Shown here: positions 800 to 15,065 of the stretch, one piece after another
How positions within the stretch are numbered: the stretch's first letter is position 1
Layout: every line of letters begins with the position of its first letter
DNA from: a virus
Taxonomy: Duplodnaviria; Heunggongvirae; Uroviricota; Caudoviricetes
IMG/VR virus record: IMGVR_UViG_2651869725_000022
Coordinates: 1 to 18,334 of that record
Length of the DNA: 18,334 nt
Reading direction: 5' to 3' (one strand)
The notes under the pieces: generated by a model
Seen by the model: the letters and a program-made list of their open reading frames with translations, nothing else
Told to the model about the DNA's origin: nothing
The model's database searches: none
Position numbers and translations under genes: made by a program

Positions 800-1150
800 T
801 CACTTTAACCGTTCACGGGCCGTCTTCGCCTTATGACACGGCCAGCACAGACTCTGCAGATTACTGTCAGCATCAGTGCCGCCATGCGCTTTAGGGATGA
901 TGTGGTCAACAGTTTTCGCCTCACGCACCACACCAGCACGCAGACATAACTGACACAGACCTTTGTCACGCTTCAGAACACGCGCGCGGATACTGTCCCA
1001 CTTCGAACCGTAGCCGCGCTGATGACGGGATTGTCCAGGTTTGTATTGCTTCCAGCCTTCGCTTTTGTGGCTTTCGCAGTAGCCTGAAGGGTCAGTAGTG
1101 GTATGGCGGCAGCCGCGAACACGGCAGGCTTTCGGGGTTCGTGGCGGCAT
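800..1150 (-). CDS. HNH endonuclease (packaging-associated)
   Basis: 116 aa with Cys-rich N-terminus (CRVRGCRH...CESH) and a C-terminal HNH motif (DHIIPKAHGGTDADSNLQSLCWPCHKAK). Sits immediately upstream of the terminase genes, the usual arrangement in cos phages. Confidence 0.8.
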   Translation of the reverse strand: MPPRTPKACRVRGCRHTTTDPSGYCESHKSEGWKQYKPGQSRHQRGYGSKWDSIRARVLKRDKGLCQLCLRAGVVREAKTVDHIIPKAHGGTDADSNLQSLCWPCHKAKTARERLK

Positions 1151-1199
1151 TAATGCTTCCCTTTAAGTTATTACGATGGAACAGACCATAGAAATGGCA

Positions 1200-1223
1200 A
1201 TAAAAAACCGCCCGGAGGCGGTT
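1200..1223 (-). terminator. Intrinsic terminator downstream of the 106-aa gene
   Basis: Plus-strand AAAAAACCGCC-cgga-GGCGGTT; on the minus strand this is a GC stem followed by a T-run (TTTTTTATT). Confidence 0.55.
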
Positions 1224-1242
1224 CAATTATCATCTCGATAAA

Positions 1243-1563
1243 CTAAATCAGATCACCAATGTATTTTGCACTAATTGAAATTTGCATCTGAGGCATTCCG
1301 ACCACAGATCCATTTAACAGGTAATCACGTCCTCGTTCCTGCAAAGAAAGACTCAATTCAAAGTTCTTTACCCCAGGGAAAACCGAGGTGGCATTTAAAT
1401 CATGCTGCGATACGCGCAGAATAAGTTGGCTACCGTCAACTTTTCCCTGATACGTAAAACCAAAATCTCCGCCGTTTACTGCATTGTTTTTGACAACTAC
1501 GGTACCATTACCAAAATCACGCTGATTGCTTCTGAAAACAACAAAATAGATACCATCTTTCAT
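1243..1563 (-). CDS. Hypothetical protein (106 aa) between spanins and HNH
   Basis: Intact ORF followed by a terminator; no family recognised by eye. Weak RBS. Confidence 0.4.
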   Translation of the reverse strand: MKDGIYFVVFRSNQRDFGNGTVVVKNNAVNGGDFGFTYQGKVDGSQLILRVSQHDLNATSVFPGVKNFELSLSLQERGRDYLLNGSVVGMPQMQISISAKYIGDLI

Positions 1564-1655
1564 GTGTAAAGCCCTTTAAAAGAGTCACCAAAATCAGGTG
1601 CTTTGTATCTATTGGGCCATCACATATCAAATCAAGGAACAAAACAAAGTTAACA

Positions 1656-1925
1656 TCATTTTTTTTGCATGATGTGACCACGCTCAACTTCAATCCTTCT
1701 GATGTCAGCTTTATCGGTATTACATTGCGCCAATGCAGACAACAAGGCGACATTCAGATCTAAGCTCGAGCCCCACGTAAAATGATTAGGTAAATCAGGC
1801 TGAGGGGTTTCAGCCGTCAGGCTGGCTGGTAACGGAACTACCGGAACCTGGACGTAAACTGTTCGCGTACTTCCGCAACCGGTCAGCAGCGGCAGCAGGC
1901 ACAGGACGTGAAGCACAATCATCAT
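1656..1925 (-). CDS. Outer-membrane spanin (Rz1-like lipoprotein), overlapping Rz in another frame
   Basis: Frame 1656-1991 overlaps the 3' part of the Rz-like gene. Contains a lipobox (LLPLLTGC) followed by a Pro-rich stretch (VPVVPLPASLTAETPQPDLP). Start placed at the internal Met-Met (1925); the exact start is uncertain. Confidence 0.55.
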   Translation of the reverse strand: MMIVLHVLCLLPLLTGCGSTRTVYVQVPVVPLPASLTAETPQPDLPNHFTWGSSLDLNVALLSALAQCNTDKADIRRIEVERGHIMQKK

Positions 1926-2202
1926 CCGCAACAGCCACTTTGATATCTTTCTGGGTTCTCTGTGACTCCAGTGCGATCTGCTGTTTTGCATGTTGATTCG
2001 CCTCCTGAATGATGTTCGTTATTGCCATAGTACGCAGAACATTCGCGGTGATAGCCTCAGTAGAATCAGCTCGCTGTTCCGCAGCATCAGCACGCTTCTG
2101 CTCCTCCAGAAACTTTCCATGATAGTGATTCGCTGACCAGACAAGACCACCAGCGACACAAGCAATAAACGTTAAAATGAGCGCCCAATAACTCATCTTC
2201 AT
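1810..2202 (-). CDS. Inner-membrane spanin (Rz-like)
   Basis: 130 aa with an N-terminal transmembrane helix (WALILTFIACVAGGLVW), then a charged, coiled-coil-like region. Immediately downstream of the endolysin, with the lipoprotein frame overlapping. Confidence 0.6.
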   Translation of the reverse strand: MKMSYWALILTFIACVAGGLVWSANHYHGKFLEEQKRADAAEQRADSTEAITANVLRTMAITNIIQEANQHAKQQIALESQRTQKDIKVAVADDDCASRPVPAAAADRLRKYANSLRPGSGSSVTSQPDG

Positions 2203-2813
2203 ACCAGCAGCGCCGCCCGCGCCTTGTTGTATCGGACCTTACGATCCTCAATACCGTTCAAACCGCCGTTAATGATGCGCGTAACACGGTTAATATCGGC
2301 ACCGTAGATCATGCAACCTTTAGAGGTGTAGAACCATGCAGCTGAGCGCGCAGCCTGTAGTTCCTGTTCCAGTTGTTCAGGTGAAGTCACCAGATCTAAC
2401 TTCAGCGCCGCGCCACAGATGCGATAATTATGGAGGCCAGTGATTTGAATTAATCCTCTACCGCGATATTTCCAGCCATCACCGGGTGCTTTGTTACCCA
2501 GCCGGTTGCTATACACCAGATTGGCAATAGCATCCTGGCGAGCTGCATGTCCGGATGTTCTGCCAAGGGCATCAGCCTGCTGCTGTGTGATCCTCTTTCC
2601 GAACGTCGCCACCAGCGCAGATGGCGTGTAGTTAAAATTTTCAACTACGGCGCTAAACCCCATCGACTCATGGCCTACCTGAGCGATAAACATTGCCTGA
2701 TCCGCTGGTGCTGTAATGCCGAATTCCTTCATCGCCGCATCAATGTGCGGAAACCAGCGCGCAGCCAGCCCGGCGCTAATACCAGCCGCCTTTTGAAATA
2801 ATTGTTGGTTCAT
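2199..2813 (-). CDS. Endolysin, glycoside hydrolase family 19 (chitinase-like lysozyme)
   Basis: 204 aa; motifs FIAQVGHES and YRGRGLIQITGLHNY are characteristic of GH19 phage endolysins. Flanked by holin-like and spanin genes; 4-bp overlap with the Rz-like start. Confidence 0.8.
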   Translation of the reverse strand: MNQQLFQKAAGISAGLAARWFPHIDAAMKEFGITAPADQAMFIAQVGHESMGFSAVVENFNYTPSALVATFGKRITQQQADALGRTSGHAARQDAIANLVYSNRLGNKAPGDGWKYRGRGLIQITGLHNYRICGAALKLDLVTSPEQLEQELQAARSAAWFYTSKGCMIYGADINRVTRIINGGLNGIEDRKVRYNKARAALLV

Positions 2814-3094
2814 TAGTGCCTCAGATGATCAACCAGACGTGCAACGTTGCCTCTGACAGCCACCAGCACGGAAAGAAAAATAGTGTTCGCCACGATAATG
2901 GGCCATGAGGAATGGGGATAAATCCCACAGAGATAGGCCAACGGAACAGCACTGTATGTAACAGTAATCAGCCAGGCTAAACGTGAAACCCAAGGACGAT
3001 GCCGCGAATCACCACGACGATAAAACATCAGAGTAATAACAACACAAGCACATAACAGCGCATTTATAGTTGCTGTCGGGTCATTTAGCTCCAC
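2813..3094 (-). CDS. Small membrane protein of the lysis cassette (holin/antiholin-like)
   Basis: 93 aa with at least two hydrophobic helices (INALLCACVVITLMF; IIVANTIFLSVLVAV). Lies between the putative holin and the endolysin, with start/stop overlaps on both sides. Confidence 0.45.
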   Translation of the reverse strand: MELNDPTATINALLCACVVITLMFYRRGDSRHRPWVSRLAWLITVTYSAVPLAYLCGIYPHSSWPIIVANTIFLSVLVAVRGNVARLVDHLRH

Positions 3095-3467
3095 CTGAAC
3101 CTCCCCGGCGCGTTATGAGCGCCACCAGCGAGCCGATATCCTGATTATTCAGGAACGTCAGGATTTTAACGGCTAAAGCAGAGACGATTACGGCACCAAT
3201 AGCATCCAGAGGTTTATCACTGTATCCGGTCAAGTTCGCCAGCTTGGAGCCAACCAACCCAGAGCAAAGAATCCCGGCAATATATGACACGATAAAATAT
3301 GCCAGTCGGCGCGATGCACTCAGATCTGCAGCTGTTGCTATGTAGAATACAGCCCCTGCAAATGCGCCAAATACAACGCCGTAATCAGTTCCGGTCAGCA
3401 GTCCATAAACACTGGCACCCGTCAGGGCACCACCAGCCAGCCCAGTACCGGAAATCGGATCGGACAT
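3081..3467 (-). CDS. Putative holin (Gly-rich multi-pass membrane protein)
   Basis: 128 aa, Gly/Ala-rich hydrophobic segments. First gene of the lysis cassette, with a GAGGGGG RBS 5 nt upstream of the ATG at 3467. Confidence 0.5.
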   Translation of the reverse strand: MSDPISGTGLAGGALTGASVYGLLTGTDYGVVFGAFAGAVFYIATAADLSASRRLAYFIVSYIAGILCSGLVGSKLANLTGYSDKPLDAIGAVIVSALAVKILTFLNNQDIGSLVALITRRGGSGGAK

Positions 3468-3510
3468 TTAGCCCCCTCTTAATTGCTGTTGGTCCTCTCA
3501 GAACGAGGGG

Positions 3511-3540
3511 AAACAAAAAAGGCCGCATTAAGGCGGCCTT
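3511..3540 (-). terminator. Intrinsic terminator downstream of the accessory gene 3558-4154
   Basis: 8-bp GC stem AAGGCCGC / GCGGCCTT (3519-3540) with a 6-nt loop; on the minus strand it is followed by TTTTTTGTTT. Confidence 0.65.
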
Positions 3541-3557
3541 GGTGAGGTATAGTTTTT

Positions 3558-4154
3558 TTAAGATAAACTTTGATTGATATACTCATGACACCCAAAAATA
3601 AAGGCGTTTTGTGCATCAATAAATGACTTTTTTTCTTCCGGAGTAAAATACCCTTTTGTAAAACATACTTTTAGCGCTTTTTGAAGATCTGCCGTCAGGG
3701 TTATCAACTTACAACCTTCCTCATCAGGCCTTATTAATAGAAGTAATTTATTTTTACTTATTTCAGCGGCCTTTATTGGAACTTGAATCTCCTCAGGGAA
3801 AACACCCTTAGCCAATATATCCATATTCTTATTTCCGACCAGATGCCATTGCTCAAATGTGCTGGCCAACATAATTACGTCTGTCACATGCTCAGCGCCA
3901 GCAAAACGTATTTGTTGCGCCAATTCTTTATTAGTATTCAAGTGAGCCTGTAATGTGGCTAAGGCAAAATTTTCTTTGATTGCCCTGTATGCAACCCAAC
4001 CAGTTATTCCTGCGGCAATAACGCCTGCAAGAGCAGTAATGAGTGTTTCAAAAGGAAAGGAAGAACTGATTTCAATTGGCGGTAATTTTTCTATTACCAA
4101 GGTCAACTCGCCAGTAGTTTTTTCGAAAGCGTACGGTACGTTTTGCCAAGTCAT
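3558..4154 (-). CDS. Hypothetical membrane-anchored protein (198 aa); accessory gene between Q and the lysis cassette
   Basis: Strong RBS (AGGAGG 4 nt before the ATG at 4154). One predicted transmembrane helix (LITALAGVIAAGITGWVAYRAI) near the N-terminus, then a soluble domain of about 140 aa. Visibly more AT-rich than its neighbours and flanked by intrinsic terminators. No family recognised. Confidence 0.6.
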   Translation of the reverse strand: MTWQNVPYAFEKTTGELTLVIEKLPPIEISSSFPFETLITALAGVIAAGITGWVAYRAIKENFALATLQAHLNTNKELAQQIRFAGAEHVTDVIMLASTFEQWHLVGNKNMDILAKGVFPEEIQVPIKAAEISKNKLLLLIRPDEEGCKLITLTADLQKALKVCFTKGYFTPEEKKSFIDAQNAFIFGCHEYINQSLS

Positions 4155-4182
4155 GAAGCCTCCTGAGTTTCAGAGGAATCAT

Positions 4183-4208
4183 AACAAAAAAACCCGCTCA
4201 ATGGCGGG
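4183..4208 (-). terminator. Intrinsic terminator just downstream of Q (tR'-like position)
   Basis: Plus strand AAAAAAA-CCCGC-tcaatg-GCGGG; on the minus strand the stem is followed by seven Ts. Lies between the Q stop (4261) and the next start (4154), as tR' does in lambda. Confidence 0.5.
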
Positions 4209-4260
4209 CTCTTAATGTTGTGTTGCTCAGTTCGCTTTAACGTCCCGAGCCTACCACAAT

Positions 4261-4839
4261 TTAAGCACTTTCTTGCTCACTCTGCAACTTAAATCTGTCG
4301 CTATTTGTGCCGAATGCGTCACAAACTGGAGCGTACAGGATCGATTCTGCAAGACTTAGCCAAGTGTCAATGCGTCGACGACAGGTGATCAGCGGCCAGT
4401 CAGGATGTTTAGCCTGCAGTTCATTGGCCATCTGCAACTTGCTCTTACGAAGACGATACCGGTCAACAATCACGCTATAGAGCGATCGGTAGTCATCATT
4501 CATCAGTACTGAAGCAATGACACCGTCCACTAACAACCCTTCTTCATCTGAACAGAACGCCAGGCCGCTTTTATTTTTGCTGTTGAGAATTTCACGCAGG
4601 TACGCTTCAAGTTCAGGCTTGGTGATACCCGCTATCTTCATCCGGCGTAGCGCTTCATTGATAGCTGTCTTGGTGATTTTCCCGGATGCCAGAAGCTGGT
4701 TAAACATGTTTCCACCACTACCACCGCCGATATAAGACCAGCGGCCCCACATGCGCAACTTGCCTTGTATCCAGATACTTTCCAGAGTACGAAGGCGAAC
4801 CATTTCACCTGATTTGCCAACTTCAGAAGGATTAATCAT
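4261..4839 (-). CDS. Late-gene antitermination protein Q-like
   Basis: 192 aa. Position (end of nin region, directly upstream of terminator and lysis genes) plus recalled resemblance to Q-family antiterminators (LRMWGRWSY...GGGSGG region, Cys/His pairs near the C-terminus). Family assignment is from memory. Confidence 0.55.
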   Translation of the reverse strand: MINPSEVGKSGEMVRLRTLESIWIQGKLRMWGRWSYIGGGSGGNMFNQLLASGKITKTAINEALRRMKIAGITKPELEAYLREILNSKNKSGLAFCSDEEGLLVDGVIASVLMNDDYRSLYSVIVDRYRLRKSKLQMANELQAKHPDWPLITCRRRIDTWLSLAESILYAPVCDAFGTNSDRFKLQSEQESA

Positions 4840-4853
4840 TTAGCATTCTCCAC

Positions 4854-5849
4854 TTACGCCAGTACGCCTATTGCCAGCGCACGATCGATAAAACGAAATA
4901 TCAGCTCCAGCTGGGAGCCATACTTCTCTTCAAATGCCACGGTATCCGCATGCAGCTCGTCGTGATGCTTTCTGCACAAAGGCAACACAAAGAGGTAATG
5001 CGCTTTTGTACCCATTCCACCCTGACCGTGACCTATCAGGTGGTGGGGATCATCAGCAGGCTTTCCACAACATGCACACGGCTGTGTCTTAACCCAGCGC
5101 GTGTACTTTTCATTAACCCAGCGGCGACGTTTTGGGCGTAACATAAAAGACTCCGGCGACTCCGGATCCACTTTCAGCGCCAGCACCTTTTTTGCCTTAT
5201 CCTGGATGATGCTGGTGGCAGGAACCGAAGGCACAAGGTCACTTTCCCGGGTGACAGACGGCACAACAGGCTTCGGTAATCTCAGTGCCTTACGGGCTGC
5301 ACTTTCCGGTAAGGCACCCGCCAGGTCATTACGAATCAGCCACCAGCACAGTTCCGGCATTGTCACAGCGTGACTATCATCAAAACCGAGATCCCGACGC
5401 ACAACAGACAACACCCAGCGGGCACAGTTATCCGTTGCCATTGATTCCAGCCGTTCCGTGAACTGATCGCGCAGCTGGTTATCGCAGTGCCAGCACAGAC
5501 GGATTGCACCCGGCGCGTGTCGCATTGTGGTCATGTTCTCGCTGTGCCAGTCGGAATGAGGCCACTGGCAGCCTTTTTCACGAAGTAACCAGCTTTCAAG
5601 ACATTCCACGCCACCAGCACGACGGATCACTGCCTCATTGCGGAACACGGCCCGAACGGCAGGATCATCCGCCAGCGGTTGTGATGCCGCCGGAACAGCA
5701 CCACTGGCGAAAGATGAATAACGTTCCGGCTCAGGCTCCAGCAGGACACGCCCCTGCATAAACAGGGGCATCAGCTCTGAACCTGGTCTGAACAATACGA
5801 TCCCCATACGCGGGGCAATTTCAGGGGTCAGTAGTGCTCTCACGGTCAC
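4854..5849 (-). CDS. DUF968-family (YdfU-like) protein with C-terminal HNH-like Cys/His motif
   Basis: 331 aa; C-terminal CACCGKPADDPHHLIGHGQGGMGTKAHYLFVLPLCRKHHDELH resembles a zinc-binding HNH-type nuclease motif. I recall this architecture from YdfU-like prophage proteins in the nin region. Confidence 0.55.
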   Translation of the reverse strand: MTVRALLTPEIAPRMGIVLFRPGSELMPLFMQGRVLLEPEPERYSSFASGAVPAASQPLADDPAVRAVFRNEAVIRRAGGVECLESWLLREKGCQWPHSDWHSENMTTMRHAPGAIRLCWHCDNQLRDQFTERLESMATDNCARWVLSVVRRDLGFDDSHAVTMPELCWWLIRNDLAGALPESAARKALRLPKPVVPSVTRESDLVPSVPATSIIQDKAKKVLALKVDPESPESFMLRPKRRRWVNEKYTRWVKTQPCACCGKPADDPHHLIGHGQGGMGTKAHYLFVLPLCRKHHDELHADTVAFEEKYGSQLELIFRFIDRALAIGVLA

Positions 5850-5850
5850 C

Positions 5851-6648
5851 TCAATGAACGATATCGAGCAGCTTTAACAGCTCAGGGAATCGGGATTCGA
5901 AGAAATGCGGCTGCGTCTCGCGCGGATTTGCGGGACTGGTGATGTTCTTGCCGAACATGCAGCCTTTCGCTGTCAGCGACCAGAATTTTTTGATGTTGTT
6001 AATCGCGGTACGGCTGTATCGTTCGCGCTGCTCGACGATCCCCAGCTTCACCATCTGGTGATATGCCTGATTAGCCGTCAGGCGTATACCATACTGTTTC
6101 AGCAGTGCACTCAGTGACAGTGTCGGGCGACTTGAGCCATCGTGTGCATCAGCAGGAGCATCAATGGCATAGCGCGGTGCCAGATTCGGTAAGCCAACAG
6201 CCTCCTGGAGTTTCTGACAGGCACCAAGCACTGAAGAGTTAGACAGGTTTAATTCCCGGCGCATAAAGTCCAGCAGAATCACACCAGCCTGCATCTTGTC
6301 AGCAGCCTGTCCGGATAATTTTTCCGGTGCGCTGGTTACCATATCGAAAGTACGGATCACCTTCAGATGGAATGACGGGCTGATCCACATTGCATAGGCA
6401 TACACCAGTTCTTTGCAGACATACGTCCCCTGGTTATTTCCGCCACGAATAACGTTAACTGGCTCTATATTGACCGAGTTGCAAATCTGCAACTCGCTTA
6501 TTAAACGTTCAGTTTGCTCATTGCGGAGCCAGAATGCAGGCTTATGCTTATCCAGAGAACCGGCAGCCCTGTGCAGATCGTTCAGGCTGTAACGCCCATA
6601 AGCATCACGACGAACTTCAATACCATCAATGACCATCAGATTATTCAT
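5851..6648 (-). CDS. KilA-N domain protein (antirepressor-like)
   Basis: Preferred start is the ATG at 6648 (GAGGAGA RBS 8 nt upstream); the longer ORF to 6750 is probably read-through. N-terminal MNNLMVIDGIEVRRDAYGRYSLNDLHRAAG...GTYVCKELVYAYAMWISPSFHLKV matches the KilA-N signature. Confidence 0.65.
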   Translation of the reverse strand: MNNLMVIDGIEVRRDAYGRYSLNDLHRAAGSLDKHKPAFWLRNEQTERLISELQICNSVNIEPVNVIRGGNNQGTYVCKELVYAYAMWISPSFHLKVIRTFDMVTSAPEKLSGQAADKMQAGVILLDFMRRELNLSNSSVLGACQKLQEAVGLPNLAPRYAIDAPADAHDGSSRPTLSLSALLKQYGIRLTANQAYHQMVKLGIVEQRERYSRTAINNIKKFWSLTAKGCMFGKNITSPANPRETQPHFFESRFPELLKLLDIVH

Positions 6649-10764: not shown

Positions 10765-11451
10765 GTGAAAACACTGGCAGAACGATTAAAGATAGGTAGA
10801 GAGAAAGCTGGCATGAGCCAAGCTCAACTAGCTGAAAAAATTGGACTTTCACAACAATCTGTAGCCAAAATAGAGAATGGCGAAACTCTACAACCGCGCA
10901 AAATTAAAGAAATTGCAAAAGTTTTAGGTGTATCACAAAAGTGGTTACAACTTGGTATTGAAGACAACGCATCCATACCTGATCTTGTTGTAAAAGAAGC
11001 AGAAAGCACCGCATTAGACCCCGATATTTTCGTAAACATCCCTGTTTTAGATGTCGAGTTATCGGCAGGTAATGGATGTCTGGCTGAAATAGTTGAATCA
11101 GCTATTGACTGGTTTCCGTTAAGAAGAGCAGATTTGAGAAAATCTGGCGTATGTGCATCTAATGCCAAGATCGTAAAAATATGGGGGAACAGTTTATTAC
11201 CGGTTCTCAATAATGGAGATCTTGTTGCCGTTGATATTTCTCAAACCGTTCCTATTCGTGATGGCGATCTTTATGCCATACGAGATGGTGTATTGCTAAG
11301 GGTTAAAATACTTATCAACTTACCTGACGGTGGCTTGATTCTTAGAAGCTTCAACAAAGATGAGTACCCAGATGAAATACTCACCTTTGAAGATAGACGA
11401 GCCAGAATTCATGTTATAGGTAGGGTATTCTGGTCATCGCGAACTTGGTAA
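10765..11451 (+). CDS. cI-type prophage repressor (HTH-XRE N-terminal domain plus S24 LexA-like autopeptidase domain)
   Basis: 228 aa starting at GTG 10765 (purine-rich RBS upstream). N-terminal HTH (MSQAQLAEKIGLSQQSVAKIENGE), candidate Ala-Gly cleavage site (LSAGNG), catalytic Ser (GNSL) and Lys (LRVK) in S24 arrangement. Confidence 0.85.
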   Translation: MKTLAERLKIGREKAGMSQAQLAEKIGLSQQSVAKIENGETLQPRKIKEIAKVLGVSQKWLQLGIEDNASIPDLVVKEAESTALDPDIFVNIPVLDVELSAGNGCLAEIVESAIDWFPLRRADLRKSGVCASNAKIVKIWGNSLLPVLNNGDLVAVDISQTVPIRDGDLYAIRDGVLLRVKILINLPDGGLILRSFNKDEYPDEILTFEDRRARIHVIGRVFWSSRTW

Positions 11452-12380: not shown

Positions 12381-12430
12381 AAGTTGTTGACAACATTCAA
12401 AACCACAATTAAATTACAACTTAAAGGTGT
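12381..12430 (+). promoter_or_regulatory. pL-like early-left promoter with operator half-sites (OL analogue)
   Basis: TTGACA at 12387-12392, 17-bp spacer, TAAATT at 12410-12415. It overlaps the imperfect palindrome AAAGTTGTTGACAACATT and a further ACAACTT copy, the same half-site as in the OR region. Confidence 0.45.
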
Positions 12431-12737: not shown

Positions 12738-13013
12738 ATGAAAGTCCAGATTTTAAACAATAGTGGTGAAGTCGTTTGGTCATACGACATAGCCGCTCCT
12801 GTAGATCAGAGCGGCGATAGCTGGACCAATGGGAAACATCAGATTATGGCTGGAGTTGTATTCTCTTTACGCCGTGCTTTGGAACAGGCTGAAGTATTTC
12901 CATCAGACCCTGAATGGAAATGGCCTTTTTCTATTTGTCCAAATTCGGAGAGTACATTTCAGAAAATTGGTCAGAAAGTCGCACTCGAAGAGCATCAGCC
13001 AACTGTTTCCTGA
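12738..13013 (+). CDS. Hypothetical protein (91 aa)
   Basis: GGAGG RBS 9 nt upstream of the ATG. No family recognised. Its 3' end overlaps the convergent minus-strand ORF by about 83 bp. Confidence 0.4.
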   Translation: MKVQILNNSGEVVWSYDIAAPVDQSGDSWTNGKHQIMAGVVFSLRRALEQAEVFPSDPEWKWPFSICPNSESTFQKIGQKVALEEHQPTVS

Positions 13014-13176
13014 TTTTTTCAGGTAGCTCGTCGGCATCGCAGAAACAACAACGCTCGATCATGTTGAAAGCCGATTCGTAGAACTGTTTCTGCTGAGTGT
13101 CGCTGAGACAGGAAAAGAGCGACGTTACGATGATTTTATTAATTGCATTATCAAGTTCTTTTTCATCAAAAGTCAT
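12931..13176 (-). CDS. Hypothetical protein (81 aa), antisense-oriented within the early-left operon
   Basis: AGGA RBS about 7 nt upstream of the ATG at 13176. Helical-looking sequence with a CCFC motif. Convergent with and overlapping the 91-aa ORF. Confidence 0.4.
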   Translation of the reverse strand: MTFDEKELDNAINKIIVTSLFSCLSDTQQKQFYESAFNMIERCCFCDADELPEKIRKQLADALRVRLSDQFSEMYSPNLDK

Positions 13177-13430
13177 TTGATTTTCCTTTTATGTATACGG
13201 ACTTAAAAGGATACCACCGAGCCTGAAGTGGTGAAAAGACAGGCACATAACAGCTAAGTATTTTCAACCAGAGAGAATCCTTAGCGTTGTGGTGAATGCG
13301 GCTCAGCGCACGCGGGTTAAGGTTGAGGCTGACAGTCGACCTTCTGTGGATACCCACCCGCCAGGTGTGCAACCTTCGCCAGGCACCGGGAGGCACCCGG
13401 CACCACAACTTTATGCTGTGTGTAGTCTTG

Positions 13431-13478
13431 GCGGTACCAGCTTGTACCCTTGCTTCCGGCTGGTACCGCTCTTTTTAC
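13431..13478 (+). terminator. Candidate intrinsic terminator inside the early-left operon (tL-like)
   Basis: Perfect 11-bp stem GCGGTACCAGC (13431-13441) / GCTGGTACCGC (13459-13469) with a 17-nt loop, followed by CTCTTTTTAC. The loop is large for a canonical terminator, hence moderate confidence. Confidence 0.45.
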
Positions 13479-13613
13479 AAAACAGAGAAGAGCATCACCG
13501 GACGACGGGCTCATAACCCAATCCACCCGGGCGGCTGCCACCGCAGGTGTTCTTCTCTGTTTTGTGGAGAAACCAACCGACCTTGCAGGGTCGATATGAT
13601 TAGGAGCAGCAAA

Positions 13614-14048
13614 ATGGCTAGCGAACGCAGTACTGATGTGCAGGCATTTATCGGGGAGCTGGACGGCGGCGTATTTGAAACCAAAATCGGCGCAGTTCTC
13701 AGTGAAGTCGCTTCCGGTGTGATGAACACGAAAACCAAAGGTAAGGTCTCACTCAACCTGGAAATCGAACCGTTTGATGAGAACCGTGTGAAAATCAAAC
13801 ACAAACTCTCATATGTTCGCCCGACTAACCGCGGGAAAATTTCCGAAGAAGACACCACCGAAACGCCGATGTATGTCAATCGCGGTGGTCGCCCGACTAA
13901 CCGCGGGAAAATTTCCGAAGAAGACACCACCGAAACGCCGATGTATGTCAATCGCGGTGGTCGCCTGACTATTCTGCAGGAAGACCAGGGACAATTACTG
14001 ACTCTTGCCGGTGAACCTGACGGAAAACTCCGCGCAGCAGGTCATTAA
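13614..14048 (+). CDS. Hypothetical protein (144 aa) containing a duplicated 24-aa segment
   Basis: Preferred start is the ATG at 13614 with AGGAG 7 nt upstream; the upstream part of the long ORF 13296-14048 is GC-rich and lacks an RBS. Contains the tandem repeat PTNRGKISEEDTTETPMYVNRGGR twice. Confidence 0.55.
   Translation: MASERSTDVQAFIGELDGGVFETKIGAVLSEVASGVMNTKTKGKVSLNLEIEPFDENRVKIKHKLSYVRPTNRGKISEEDTTETPMYVNRGGRPTNRGKISEEDTTETPMYVNRGGRLTILQEDQGQLLTLAGEPDGKLRAAGH
13821..13964. repeat. Perfect 72-bp tandem duplication (2 copies) inside the coding sequence
   Basis: Copy 1 at 13821-13892 and copy 2 at 13893-13964 are identical base for base. A degenerate partial third start (GCCTGACTATTC) follows. 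Confidence 0.9.
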
Positions 14049-14938: not shown

Positions 14939-15065
14939 TTTCATTACTGCAAATGCCCCTGCGGGGGCATTTATGGAAACGTAATTTACTCAATAATCGC
15001 CGGATGGTGATGGATTCTTTTTACCAGAATTCAGCGCGGTGCAGCGCATATACGTGGAGAACAAA

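What the first reader, a model, noticed from the sequence alone, without database searches (positions are those of the whole stretch)
13180..13613. Structured, GC-rich non-coding gap of about 430 bp inside the early-left operon
No ORF in this gap has a credible RBS or protein-like sequence, yet it is GC-rich compared with the AT-rich genes on either side. It contains (i) a perfect 11-bp stem with a U-rich tail (13431-13478), which is a terminator candidate, and (ii) immediately after it a perfect 15-bp inverted repeat ACAAAACAGAGAAGA (13477-13491) / TCTTCTCTGTTTTGT (13551-13565) enclosing 59 nt of GC-rich sequence. Together these suggest an ncRNA, an antitermination or processing element (nut/put-like), or a recombination site. 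No N-like arginine-rich antiterminator gene was seen, so an RNA-based mechanism is worth considering.
Basis: seen in the sequence. Interest (0 to 1): 0.55.

Follow-up and report, generated by a model that had tools for sequence, protein, structure and literature searches.

The report
Prophage small RNA plus tRNA-mimic leader
The "empty" gap in front of the prophage gene yfdP holds two conserved folded RNAs: a small regulatory RNA of a known prophage family, and an undescribed leader whose tip copies the anticodon loop of the initiator tRNA.

Summary
The gap 13180-13613 is non-coding, GC-rich, and more structured than chance.

It contains two adjacent + strand RNA elements, each conserved on its own.

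(A) 13285-13476 is a ~191-nt small RNA. It has a pseudoknotted 5' domain related to Rfam STnc100 (38 bits, below the gathering score of 47). It sits at the same locus as the published E. coli K1 "sRNA-17" and is built like DicF of prophage Qin.

It occurs in prophages of at least 13 Enterobacterales genera. Compensatory changes support its stems, and Rfam has no match. Its invariant apical hairpin GGG-CUCAUAA-CCC is identical to the anticodon stem-loop of initiator tRNA-fMet.

Tests for nut/put-type antitermination, a decayed gene, or a DNA recombination site did not support those readings.

Most likely A is a trans-acting sRNA whose terminator shields the early-left genes in the lysogen. B is a cis-acting leader of the early-left transcript, and its mechanism is unknown.

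The parts
12387..12415 (+). Candidate early-left promoter (PL-like), TTGACA-17-TAAATT
   Evidence: It matches 10 of 12 consensus positions. It lies downstream of the cI-like repressor gene and upstream of the first + strand early gene. This is a consensus match only.
13236..13264 (+). Weak candidate promoter for the sRNA itself: AAGACA (13236-41), 17-nt spacer, TATTTT (13259-64). An alternative -10 is GAGAAT at 13273-78.
   Evidence: It matches 8 of 12 positions. In family members with strong promoters, the -10 ends exactly 8 nt before GGUGAAU in 20 of 22 cases. This window lacks that arrangement, so whether the sRNA has its own promoter or is processed from the PL transcript is unresolved.
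13285..13409 (+). Structured 5' domain of the sRNA (STnc100-like core). Helices: P1 13286-94/13401-09; P2 13298-302/13308-13; P3 13314-16/13357-59; P4 13360-67/13377-84; P5 13386-90/13396-400. A pseudoknot joins 13319-25 (AAGGUUG) to the P4 loop at 13370-76 (CAACCUU).
   Evidence: Rfam STnc100 matches full length at 38.2 bits, E = 1.5e-6, below the gathering score of 47. On 96 distinct relatives, 96.1% of cells are paired against 81.6% in shuffles, and the covariation score is 0.41 against 0.14, with 0 of 500 shuffles as high. For the pseudoknot, matched strand/loop pairs score a mean of 6.7 against 4.5 (sd 1.15) for mismatched pairs. One example of compensation is AAGGUUG/CAACCUU changing to AAGGCUGG/UCAGCCUU in phage phiES15. 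The 5' end at 13285 corresponds to the RACE 5' end of sRNA-17.
13410..13429 (+). Single-stranded GU-rich linker UUUAUGCUGUGUGUAGUCUU, the candidate seed and Hfq-binding region
   Evidence: UGCUGUGUGUAGUCUU is invariant in E. coli, Klebsiella and Citrobacter phages and differs at one base in Salmonella phage ST64B, while the adjacent terminator stems differ and covary. It is predicted unpaired. It aligns with the seed region of DicF.
13430..13476 (+). Intrinsic terminator of the sRNA: stem 13431-41/13459-69, then U-tract 13470-76
   Evidence: The stem is a perfect 11 bp. In relatives the stem sequence is replaced but pairing is kept: GUCGGCGUC/GACGCCGAC in ST64B, UGCCCAC/GUGGGCA in LLS. The 3' end corresponds to the sRNA-17 3' RACE end. 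79 of 102 family members have a terminator 30-90 nt after the core.
13470..13572 (+). Conserved leader element B, a three-way junction. Pb is 13498-502/13526-30. Pc is 13531-34/13541-44.
   Evidence: My covariance model R2 scores the + strand 108.3 bits and the - strand 37.5 bits, though the window was part of the training set. Across 21 distinct sequences from many genera, 98.4% of cells are paired and 9 pairs change on both sides, with 0 of 500 shuffles as high. Rfam has no match.
13507..13519 (+). Apical hairpin GGG-CUCAUAA-CCC, identical to the anticodon stem-loop of initiator tRNA-fMet (CAU at 13512-14)
   Evidence: The flanked version, CGACGGGCUCAUAACCCAAUC, compares with CGUCGGGCUCAUAACCCGAAG in the tRNA. 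The 77-nt tRNA sequence I used matched annotated tRNA-Met at 100%, in a median of 4 places per genome in all 5426 E. coli genomes. The 13-mer is present in all BLAST-found relatives. Among the 160 fetched loci it occurs only at this element, apart from chance hits in unrelated MAGs.
13576..13595 (+). Hairpin 3 (stem 13578-82/13589-93, loop UUGCAG), just upstream of the yfdP ribosome-binding site
   Evidence: It is replaced by GGCGG-UGGCAG-CCGCC and similar sequences in other genera, so the stem covaries while GCAG in the loop is kept.
13602..13616 (+). Shine-Dalgarno AGGAG (13602-06) and the yfdP start codon (13614-16)
   Evidence: Read directly from the sequence. It matches the PGAP and SfV orf32 start.

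Best explanation
The gap encodes two separate + strand RNA elements.

**Element A (13285-13476)** is a prophage small RNA.
- It has a ~125-nt pseudoknotted 5' domain closed by helix P1, then a conserved single-stranded GU-rich stretch, then an intrinsic terminator.
- It is made either from a weak promoter of its own or, by analogy with DicF, by processing of the PL transcript.
- I infer that it acts in trans by base-pairing through the conserved linker, and that the folded 5' domain serves as a stability or processing scaffold.
- Its terminator stops transcription from reaching yfdP and the other early-left genes in the lysogen.

**Element B (13470-13572, plus hairpin 3)** is the structured 5' leader of the early-left mRNA.
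- It carries a 22-bp outer helix and an apical copy of the initiator-tRNA anticodon stem-loop.
- I infer that it acts in cis on read-through or PL transcripts, through RNase III-type processing, mRNA stabilisation or control of yfdP translation. No step of this was tested here.

**Shown:** the structures, their conservation, their strand, and the family relations.
**Taken from a paper:** a discrete ~193-nt transcript at the same locus in strain RS218.
**Inferred:** trans-acting base-pairing, Hfq dependence, processing, and every function proposed for B.
For: **Element A**
- Rfam STnc100 matches full length.
- 134 relatives in viral contigs share the core, with strong covariation and a covarying pseudoknot.
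- Members with strong promoters place the -10 exactly 8 nt before P1, and 77% have a terminator, so the family consists of discrete transcription units.
- STnc100 copies are expressed and one was positive by northern blot in EDL933 (PMC5331693). The related PasD sRNAs are Hfq RIL-seq sRNAs (bioRxiv 10.64898/2026.05.13.724894).
- The primers for sRNA-17 place a 193-nt RNA, mapped by RACE and northern blot, on the yfdP-sense strand at window-equivalent 13285-13475. Wild-type yfdP reads are about 0.
- The linker is conserved across four genera while the terminators covary.
- Qin of K-12 has the same kind of core next to dicF (65.6 bits). [quoted passage not shown]

**Element B**
- Covariation supports the structure, and the model scores are strongly asymmetric between strands.
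- It is present in at least 13 genera.
- It always lies between the repressor/PL side and the first early-left gene, whichever gene that is.
- In Mixta a PL-like promoter feeds directly into B and then yfdP, with no sRNA in between.
Against: - The STnc100 score is below Rfam's gathering threshold, and the window has no strong promoter in front of P1.
- No target complementary to the linker lies in the window. Host targets were not searched.
- There is no direct expression data for this exact variant. The RS218 variant shares only the first 15 nt, the P1 3' strand and everything downstream of it.
- The rise of yfdP in the RS218 deletion may be polar read-through from the retained CmR cassette, so it says little about function.
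- Folding energy of element A alone is not significantly better than shuffles, z = -1.5. Its support comes from covariation.
- The function of B is pure inference.
- The elaborate, highly conserved core is unusual for a simple base-pairing sRNA. It also occurs as a 5' UTR in front of dicB without a terminator, which hints at a cis function that I cannot name.
Confidence: 0.72

Rival explanations
1. Element A's core, or element B, is a put-like cis-acting RNA. It would modify RNA polymerase so that PL transcripts read through the sRNA terminator and later terminators. This would replace a missing N protein.
For: - The position matches putL/nutL. In ST64B, mEp460, LLS and phiNP no annotated gene lies between the repressor gene and the elements. 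In Mixta a PL-like promoter feeds directly into element B.
- A strong terminator sits between PL and genes the phage needs after induction, so some read-through mechanism is logically required.
- No N-like gene was detected among the small PL-proximal ORFs.
- The core is far more elaborate than a base-pairing sRNA needs.
- In Qin the core sits as a leader in front of dicB.
Against: - HK022 has no similarity to either model or motif.
- There is one copy per phage, with no PR-side partner.
- Many family members are stand-alone units with their own promoter and terminator. They occur in tandem arrays and accumulate as ~190-210-nt RNAs, so they terminate efficiently.
- In RS218 the sRNA is detectable while yfdP is silent.
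- Element B lies downstream of the terminator it would need to suppress.
Confidence: 0.12
2. Element B is a functional mimic of the initiator tRNA anticodon arm. It could be a decoy or sensor for factors that recognise tRNA-fMet: VapC/MvpT-type toxins that cut its anticodon loop, MetRS, or the 30S P-site with IF3. In that way it could protect or tune phage early expression.
For: - The 13-nt identity to the tRNA-fMet anticodon stem-loop includes the three G-C pairs that are the hallmark of initiator tRNAs.
- This hairpin and the adjacent AAUCCA are invariant across genera, while the surrounding stems vary and covary.
- A diverged Pantoea copy keeps this hairpin although its outer stem is completely different.
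- VapC toxins of Shigella and Salmonella, which are hosts of SfV and ST64B, cleave tRNA-fMet (review PMC7180214).
Against: - The link rests on sequence identity alone. There is no experiment.
- The lower two pairs of the tRNA anticodon stem are not kept: C-A and A-A instead of C-G and U-A.
- ARAGORN sees no tRNA-like gene.
- A single mRNA leader is unlikely to titrate an enzyme.
- A fragment of tRNA origin retained for another reason cannot be excluded.
Confidence: 0.1
3. The gap is a decayed protein-coding gene. PGAP calls 13289-13599 a frameshifted hypothetical protein, and PHROG families match ORFs on both strands.
For: - PGAP annotates a pseudogene here in strain MS1679.
- phrog_3651 and phrog_33599 match ORFs in the gap.
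Against: - The 'families' lie on opposite strands of the same DNA and have no known function or Pfam match.
- The translations are Arg/Cys/Pro-rich and not protein-like.
- ST64B differs by 1-nt and 20-nt indels and shares no ORF in any frame.
- Substitutions are compensatory in RNA helices.
Confidence: 0.02
4. The 15-bp inverted repeat is a DNA-level site, either a recombination or mosaic joint or a protein-binding palindrome.
For: - Mosaic joints do flank the elements. Homology to other phages breaks at about 13214, about 13428 and about 13580.
- Different genes are fused right after GGAGAAAC(C/U)AA.
Against: - Conserved G-U pairs and the 108 versus 37 bit strand asymmetry point to RNA.
- The most conserved part is the asymmetric interior, not the palindrome arms.
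- The arms covary rather than keep a fixed sequence.
Confidence: 0.03

Closest known systems
sRNA-17 of E. coli K1 RS218 (PMC7719688)
   Same: - Same locus, in front of yfdP in an mEp460/SfV-type prophage, and the same strand as yfdP.
- Same 5' start, CGUUGUGGUGAAUGCG.
- Same P1 3' strand, same terminator and same downstream element B.
- Similar length, 193 versus about 191 nt.
   Different: - The ~105-nt interior is a different sequence. The RS218/mEp460 version lacks the pseudoknot and the CCGGGAGGCACCCGG hairpin, and scores only 23 bits with the family model.
- The authors found no Rfam homologue and proposed ArcA control. Neither can be transferred to this variant.
Rfam STnc100 (RF02076) and the related PasD sRNAs of pathogenic E. 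coli
   Same: - Same core architecture: P1, AAU, P2, P3, P4, P5.
- The same near-invariant strings GGUGAAU and CACCGGGAGGCACCCGGCACCA.
- A terminator follows the core.
- Prophage location.
   Different: - The score of 38.2 bits is below the gathering score of 47.
- P2 has a different sequence (GCGGC...GCACGC instead of CCCCC...GGAGGGG), as in a minority subtype also seen in ST64B, phiES15 and Qin.
- The location is the early-left operon. The copies described in the literature lie elsewhere: downstream of stx2 for STnc100, near the Q antiterminator gene for PasD.
- There is no strong promoter of its own.
- The pseudoknot found here is not part of the Rfam consensus structure shown.
DicF of prophage Qin (RF00039)
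   Same: - Same genomic setting: a repressor, then an early operon on the same strand, with an sRNA that has a single-stranded seed plus the terminator UUGGCGGUA(U/C)CAG... just before the next gene.
- A ~190-nt long form exists for DicF, and it rises in stationary phase, as sRNA-17 does.
- An STnc100-like core of the same subtype lies directly next to dicF in K-12.
- In phiES15 the sRNA precedes kil, as dicF precedes dicB.
   Different: - The DicF model scores only 19.4 bits, against a gathering score of 48.
- The seed sequence differs.
- In Qin the detectable core follows dicF instead of preceding it.
- The region upstream of dicF is not recognised by my model.
HK022 put RNAs and lambda nut sites / N-leader
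   Same: The position is the same, at the start of the PL transcript ahead of the first early-left gene. The long helix in front of the first gene recalls the RNase III hairpin of the lambda N leader (my own knowledge, not tested).
   Different: - No sequence or structure similarity to HK022.
- No second copy on the PR side.
- No conserved boxA or boxB.
- No N-like gene found.
tRNA-like operator mimics such as the thrS operator (own knowledge)
   Same: An mRNA leader hairpin that copies a tRNA anticodon arm.
   Different: - Here the copied tRNA is the initiator.
- The downstream genes are phage genes, not a synthetase.
- No binding partner is known.

Membership tests
Rfam STnc100 (RF02076) | Covariance-model score at or above the curated gathering score (47 bits) | tested here: not met
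   38.2 bits, full-length match 13256-13478, E = 1.5e-6 in a 1-kb search. There was no hit at the gathering threshold on the whole window. I therefore call it a sub-threshold relative, not a member by Rfam's rule.
Rfam STnc100 (RF02076) | Core helices P1/P2/P4/P5 and the conserved strings GGUGAAU and CACCGGGAGGCACCCGGCACCA | tested here: met
   Both strings are present exactly. All helices form in the window, apart from one A-A mismatch in P4. My own family model gives 79.2 bits, but the window was in its training set.
Rfam STnc100 (RF02076) | Independent transcription unit: a sigma-70 promoter immediately before P1 and a terminator after the core | tested here: inconclusive
   The terminator is present. 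The promoter is only 8 of 12 and mis-spaced compared with the strong-promoter members.
sRNA-17 (E. coli K1) | Same sequence as the 193-nt RACE-mapped RNA | tested here: not met
   Only the 5' 15 nt and the part from CACCACAAC onward are shared. The interior is replaced (primers). It is a positional counterpart, not the same RNA.
DicF (RF00039) | Covariance-model score at or above 48 bits | tested here: not met
   19.4 bits, E = 0.19, at 13417-13471. Related loci from other genera also gave no DicF hit at the gathering threshold.
DicF (RF00039) | [quoted passage not shown] | not testable with these tools
   Known for DicF. It would need rnc and rne mutants carrying this prophage.
HK022 put RNA | Similarity to putL/putR | tested here: not met
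   No hit in the full HK022 genome with R1 or R2 at E up to 1-10, with the motifs allowing 3 mismatches, or with Rfam.
HK022 put RNA | Two copies, one after PL and one after PR | tested here: not met
   There is a single copy of each element in the window, which includes the whole PR-side operon.
HK022 put RNA | Suppresses downstream terminators in cis | not testable with these tools
   Indirect evidence argues against it. In RS218 the sRNA is detectable while yfdP has about 0 reads.
Lambda-type nut site | Conserved boxA (CGCUCUUA-like) followed by a boxB hairpin, plus an N protein | tested here: not met
   The boxA-like string in the window is the terminator U-tract and is not conserved in relatives. 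No N-like family was found for the PL-proximal ORFs.
tRNA / tRNA-like gene | Cloverleaf detectable by ARAGORN or the Rfam tRNA model | tested here: not met
   No tRNA or tmRNA was found in the window. Only the anticodon stem-loop is copied.
RNase III processing hairpin (N-leader / T7 type) | About 22 bp of duplex cleaved by RNase III | not testable with these tools
   Pa has 22 predicted pairs. Cleavage was not tested.

The most novel reading that the evidence does not exclude
Element B is a previously undescribed class of phage leader RNA. Its conserved function would depend on mimicking the anticodon arm of initiator tRNA. For example, it could act as a decoy or sensor for tRNA-fMet-cleaving VapC toxins, or as a P-site/IF3/MetRS ligand that gates translation of the early-left operon. 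Together with the pseudoknotted STnc100-type core, this would mean that lambdoid prophages of Enterobacterales carry a family of protein- or ribosome-binding structured RNAs that have been filed as ordinary sRNAs.
Probability: 0.12. Interest if true: 0.8.

Novelty: new variant of a known kind. Interest (0 to 1): 0.55.

Why it matters
- **Annotation.** The region is present, at least in part, in about half of complete E. coli genomes (2892 of 5426). It is currently annotated as nothing, as a frameshifted pseudogene, or as spurious hypothetical proteins on either strand.
- **Family links.** Recognising element A ties together three separately named RNAs: STnc100/PasD, sRNA-17 and the DicF locus. 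It also shows that their shared core is a pseudoknotted fold, which raises the question of what that fold binds.
- **A new motif.** Element B is a clean, widely conserved motif absent from Rfam. Its exact copy of the initiator-tRNA anticodon loop gives a concrete, cheap hypothesis to test, and it sits where lambdoid phages normally place their antitermination signals.

Tried and rejected
- **Rfam at gathering threshold** on the window found nothing. Only the permissive scan gave the STnc100 lead.
- **RS218 genome lookup by accession** failed because the record is not in the collection. I used the paper's primers instead.
- **put/nut.** I fetched HK022 and tested it with motifs, Rfam and both covariance models. 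All were negative.
- **PasB as the identity of element A** was rejected, because PasB sits among phage structural genes.
- **Protein-coding reading.** Pfam was negative. PHROG hits went to unknown-function families on both strands, and the ORFs are not conserved.
- **Self-target of the linker** within the window: none found.
- **Pairing ideas judged by eye** from the alignments were dropped because neither is conserved across genera. One was pairing of the linker with the 5' strand of Pa. The other was pairing of the CAU loop with the yfdP AUG.
- **K-12 as a source of data.** CPS-53 of K-12 has lost both elements.
- **DicF 190-nt form.** I looked for a P1-like closure by folding. The minimum-energy structure did not show it and z was only -1.8, so the homology of the region upstream of dicF stays a guess.
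- **Rfam on 18 related loci from other genera** gave no DicF or STnc100 at the gathering threshold.
- **tRNA-likeness of the element A core** was considered from short resemblances and dropped for lack of support.
- **Literature search on yfdP** found nothing about its leader.
Full report
**Context.** The window is a lambdoid, SfV/mEp460-type prophage of E. coli. The region 13100-13700 is 100% identical to strain MS1679. Similar DNA occurs in 2892 of 5426 complete E. coli genomes and in phages SfV, SfII, SfIV, mEp460, cdtI and several Stx2 phages. The local gene order follows, with annotation transferred from MS1679:
- cro on the - strand
- a cI-like repressor at 10765-11451 (+)
- a - strand BRCT-domain gene
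- a PL-like promoter at 12387-12415
- two small + strand genes
- the gap
- yfdP (ATG at 13614), yfdQ, yfdR and further early-left genes

- A perfect 15-bp inverted repeat was never reached in 20 shuffles of the window, where the maximum was 9-11 bp.
- The region 13285-13620 folds 5.5 sd better than shuffles.
- ORFs exist on both strands. They have no Pfam match and translate to Arg/Cys/Pro-rich strings. They are not conserved in ST64B or SfV, which differ from the window by 1-nt and 20-nt indels.
- PGAP's "frameshifted hypothetical protein" on the + strand and the PHROG family on the - strand are best read as spurious calls over GC-rich non-coding DNA.

**Element A is an sRNA related to STnc100, sRNA-17 and DicF.**

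*Identification.* A permissive Rfam scan gave a full-length match to STnc100 at 13256-13478. It scored 38.2 bits with E = 1.5e-6, below the gathering score of 47. A scan of viral contigs for the motif GGGAGGCACCCGGCACCA returned 120 loci.

*Shared architecture.*
- Helix P1 (xGUGGUG/CACCACx), which covaries with AUGGUG/CACCAU
- The junction AAU
- Hairpin P2
- A 3-bp helix P3
- Hairpin P4
- The invariant hairpin P5, CCGGG-AGGCA-CCCGG

*Covariation.* A covariance model built from 29 members found 134 copies. On the 96 distinct sequences, 96.1% of cells pair, against 81.6% in shuffles. The covariation score is 0.41, against 0.14 in shuffles and about 0.05 with partners slid by 1-3 columns.

*Pseudoknot.* The strand after P3 pairs with the loop of P4.
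- In the window this is AAGGUUG (13319-25) with CAACCUU (13370-76).
- In phiES15 it is AAGGCUGG with UCAGCCUU, and many other combinations occur.
- Matched pairs score a mean of 6.7, against 4.5 (sd 1.15) for mismatched pairs.

*Transcription units.* Members with strong promoters have the -10 ending exactly 8 nt before GGUGAAU in 20 of 22 cases. A terminator follows in 79 of 102 members. Some contigs carry arrays of 3-5 units. So the family consists of discrete small transcription units. The window copy has only weak promoter candidates.

**Published counterpart of element A.** PMC7719688 describes a 193-nt "sRNA-17" in E. coli K1 RS218. It was mapped by RACE and northern blot in an mEp460-like prophage, and it is more abundant in stationary phase.
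- The 5'-RACE and northern oligonucleotides are antisense to the yfdP-sense strand, and the 3'-RACE primers are sense to it. The "full-length" primers are CGTTGTGGTGAATGCG... and the reverse complement of ...CCGCTCTTTT.
- The RNA therefore runs in the yfdP direction, from window-equivalent 13285 to 13475.
- The mEp460/RS218 version shares only the start, the P1 3' strand, the terminator and everything downstream. Its interior is different, and it scores 23 bits with my model.
- Deleting sRNA-17 raised yfdP about 95-fold. The CmR cassette was left in place, so this may be polar read-through.
- Wild-type yfdP had about 0 reads while the sRNA was detectable, so the terminator is effective in the lysogen.

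**The 3' module and DicF.**
- The 17-20 nt between P1 and the terminator (UUUAUGCUGUGUGUAGUCUU, 13410-29) is predicted single-stranded.
- Its core, UGCUGUGUGUAGUCUU, is invariant in the E. coli, Klebsiella and Citrobacter phages and differs at one base in Salmonella phage ST64B. The terminator stems next to it are replaced with compensation. This is the expected signature of a seed.
- This 3' module aligns with DicF (UUGGCGGUA(U/C)CAG...), but the Rfam DicF score is only 19 bits.
- In K-12 Qin, my model finds a core of the same subtype between dicF and dicB at 65.6 bits (L160 3952-4086, which is NC_000913.3 1,649,451-1,649,585).
- DicF itself exists as a 190-nt form dependent on RNase III and a 53-nt form dependent on RNase E. 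Both are cut from the early polycistronic transcript and accumulate in stationary phase.
- By analogy, element A may be processed from the PL transcript and may have a short active form. This is inference.

**Element B is an undescribed leader with an initiator-tRNA anticodon loop.**

BLAST and a scan of one genome per species found it in Escherichia, Shigella, Salmonella, Klebsiella, Citrobacter, Enterobacter, Kosakonia, Mixta, Buttiauxella, Leclercia, Phytobacter, Pseudescherichia, Pseudocitrobacter and Erwinia. A diverged copy occurs in Pantoea. About five chance hits in unrelated MAGs were discarded.

*Structure.* The consensus is a three-way junction.
- Pa has 22 pairs, 5 of them with changes on both sides, for example G-C to C-G in 9 of 21 sequences.
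- Pb has 5 pairs, covarying as CCAGG/CCUGG and CCGGA/UCCGG.
- An inner hairpin sits at the tip.
- Pc is a variable hairpin.
- 98.4% of cells pair, and 9 pairs change on both sides, with 0 of 500 shuffles as high.

*Strand.* The + strand scores 108 bits and the - strand 37 bits. Several conserved G-U pairs fit RNA, not DNA.

*Not in Rfam.* No family matches it.

*The tRNA mimic.* The inner hairpin GGG-CUCAUAA-CCC (13507-19), with its flanks, is invariant.
- It is identical to the anticodon stem-loop of E. coli initiator tRNA-fMet. I checked the tRNA sequence against annotated tRNA-Met genes.
- By my rough estimate, a chance 13-nt identity to any tRNA anticodon arm within a 100-nt element has a probability of about 1e-4.

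*Position.*
- The element always lies between the repressor/PL side and the first early-left gene, whether that gene is yfdP-like or another gene.
- In Mixta a TTGATT-18-TATAGT promoter feeds directly into it, with no sRNA in between.
- Hairpin 3 (13576-95) covaries too and sits just before the yfdP ribosome-binding site.
- There is one copy per phage.
- K-12 CPS-53 has lost both elements.

**How it most likely works.**
- *Element A.* It is a trans-acting prophage sRNA. Its conserved linker is the pairing region and its folded 5' domain is a scaffold. Its terminator doubles as the barrier that keeps yfdP and the later genes silent in the lysogen.
- *Element B.* It is a cis-acting leader on transcripts that pass the terminator or start at PL. 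The 22-bp Pa helix is the right size for RNase III, and its position parallels the RNase III hairpin of the lambda N leader (my own knowledge). The tRNA-fMet mimic suggests a protein or ribosome ligand.
- *Status.* None of these functional steps was tested here.
- *The put-like alternative.* It stays attractive on logic, because a strong terminator lies between PL and genes needed after induction. However, it failed every test I could run.

**Verdict.** The feature is real. Element A is a divergent relative of known prophage sRNAs. Element B appears to be new as a motif and has an unusual, testable feature.

Noticed in passing
window 13817-13971: yfdP carries a perfect in-frame 72-bp tandem duplication (24 codons, RPTNRGKISEEDTTETPMYVNRGG twice). 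The protein is therefore 144 aa instead of the 120 aa seen in SfV, K-12 and MS1679.
   Followed up: partly
L160 3952-4086 (NC_000913.3 1,649,451-1,649,585): In E. coli K-12 prophage Qin, the unannotated dicF-dicB intergenic region contains an STnc100-like core of the same subtype as the window (65.6 bits, E = 6e-16). It ends about 25 nt before the dicB start codon, with no terminator between them.
   Followed up: partly
L069 4376-5465 and 8376-8520; L015 2321-3354; L024 369-993; L032 1722-2346: STnc100-like units occur in tandem arrays of 3-5 copies spaced about 250-460 nt apart in some viral contigs. Each unit has a conserved core and a variable interior.
   Followed up: no
window 12931-13176 (-) and 12738-13013 (+): An 81-aa - strand ORF with a good ribosome-binding site, starting at 13176, matches phrog_3311 end to end. 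It overlaps by 83 nt the 3' end of the + strand 91-aa gene (phrog_3195), which is the only one PGAP annotates. If it is real, its promoter must lie inside the gap.
   Followed up: partly
window 13208-13253: A 45-nt stretch containing the hairpin CCACCGAGCCUGAAGUGG is conserved at 89-96% in Klebsiella phages and Rac-SA53, independently of the rest of the gap. On the - strand it resembles a weak terminator just upstream of the - strand ORF.
   Followed up: no
window 14940-15052; L008, L036, L124: The yfdQ-yfdR spacer (hairpin AAAUGCCCC-UGC-GGGGGCAUUU at 14951-74) is homologous to the sequence that directly follows element B in phages lacking yfdP-yfdQ. The yfdP-yfdQ pair therefore behaves as a cassette inserted at the joint GGAGAAAC(C/U)AACCG. 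The same spacer gives a weak, probably chance, hit to the sRNA core model (15.6 bits).
   Followed up: partly
window 13363 and 13526: Compared with most E. coli relatives, this copy has two single-base differences that each break a conserved pair. A at 13363 gives an A-A mismatch in P4, where relatives have U. C at 13526 gives an A-C mismatch in Pb, where relatives have U.
   Followed up: no
window 1001-6000 versus L001: The window is not simply strain MS1679. Sample 60-mers taken at 1001-5001 (the region between the terminase and Q genes) have no exact match in the fetched MS1679 stretch, and the offset changes again at the yfdP duplication.
   Followed up: no
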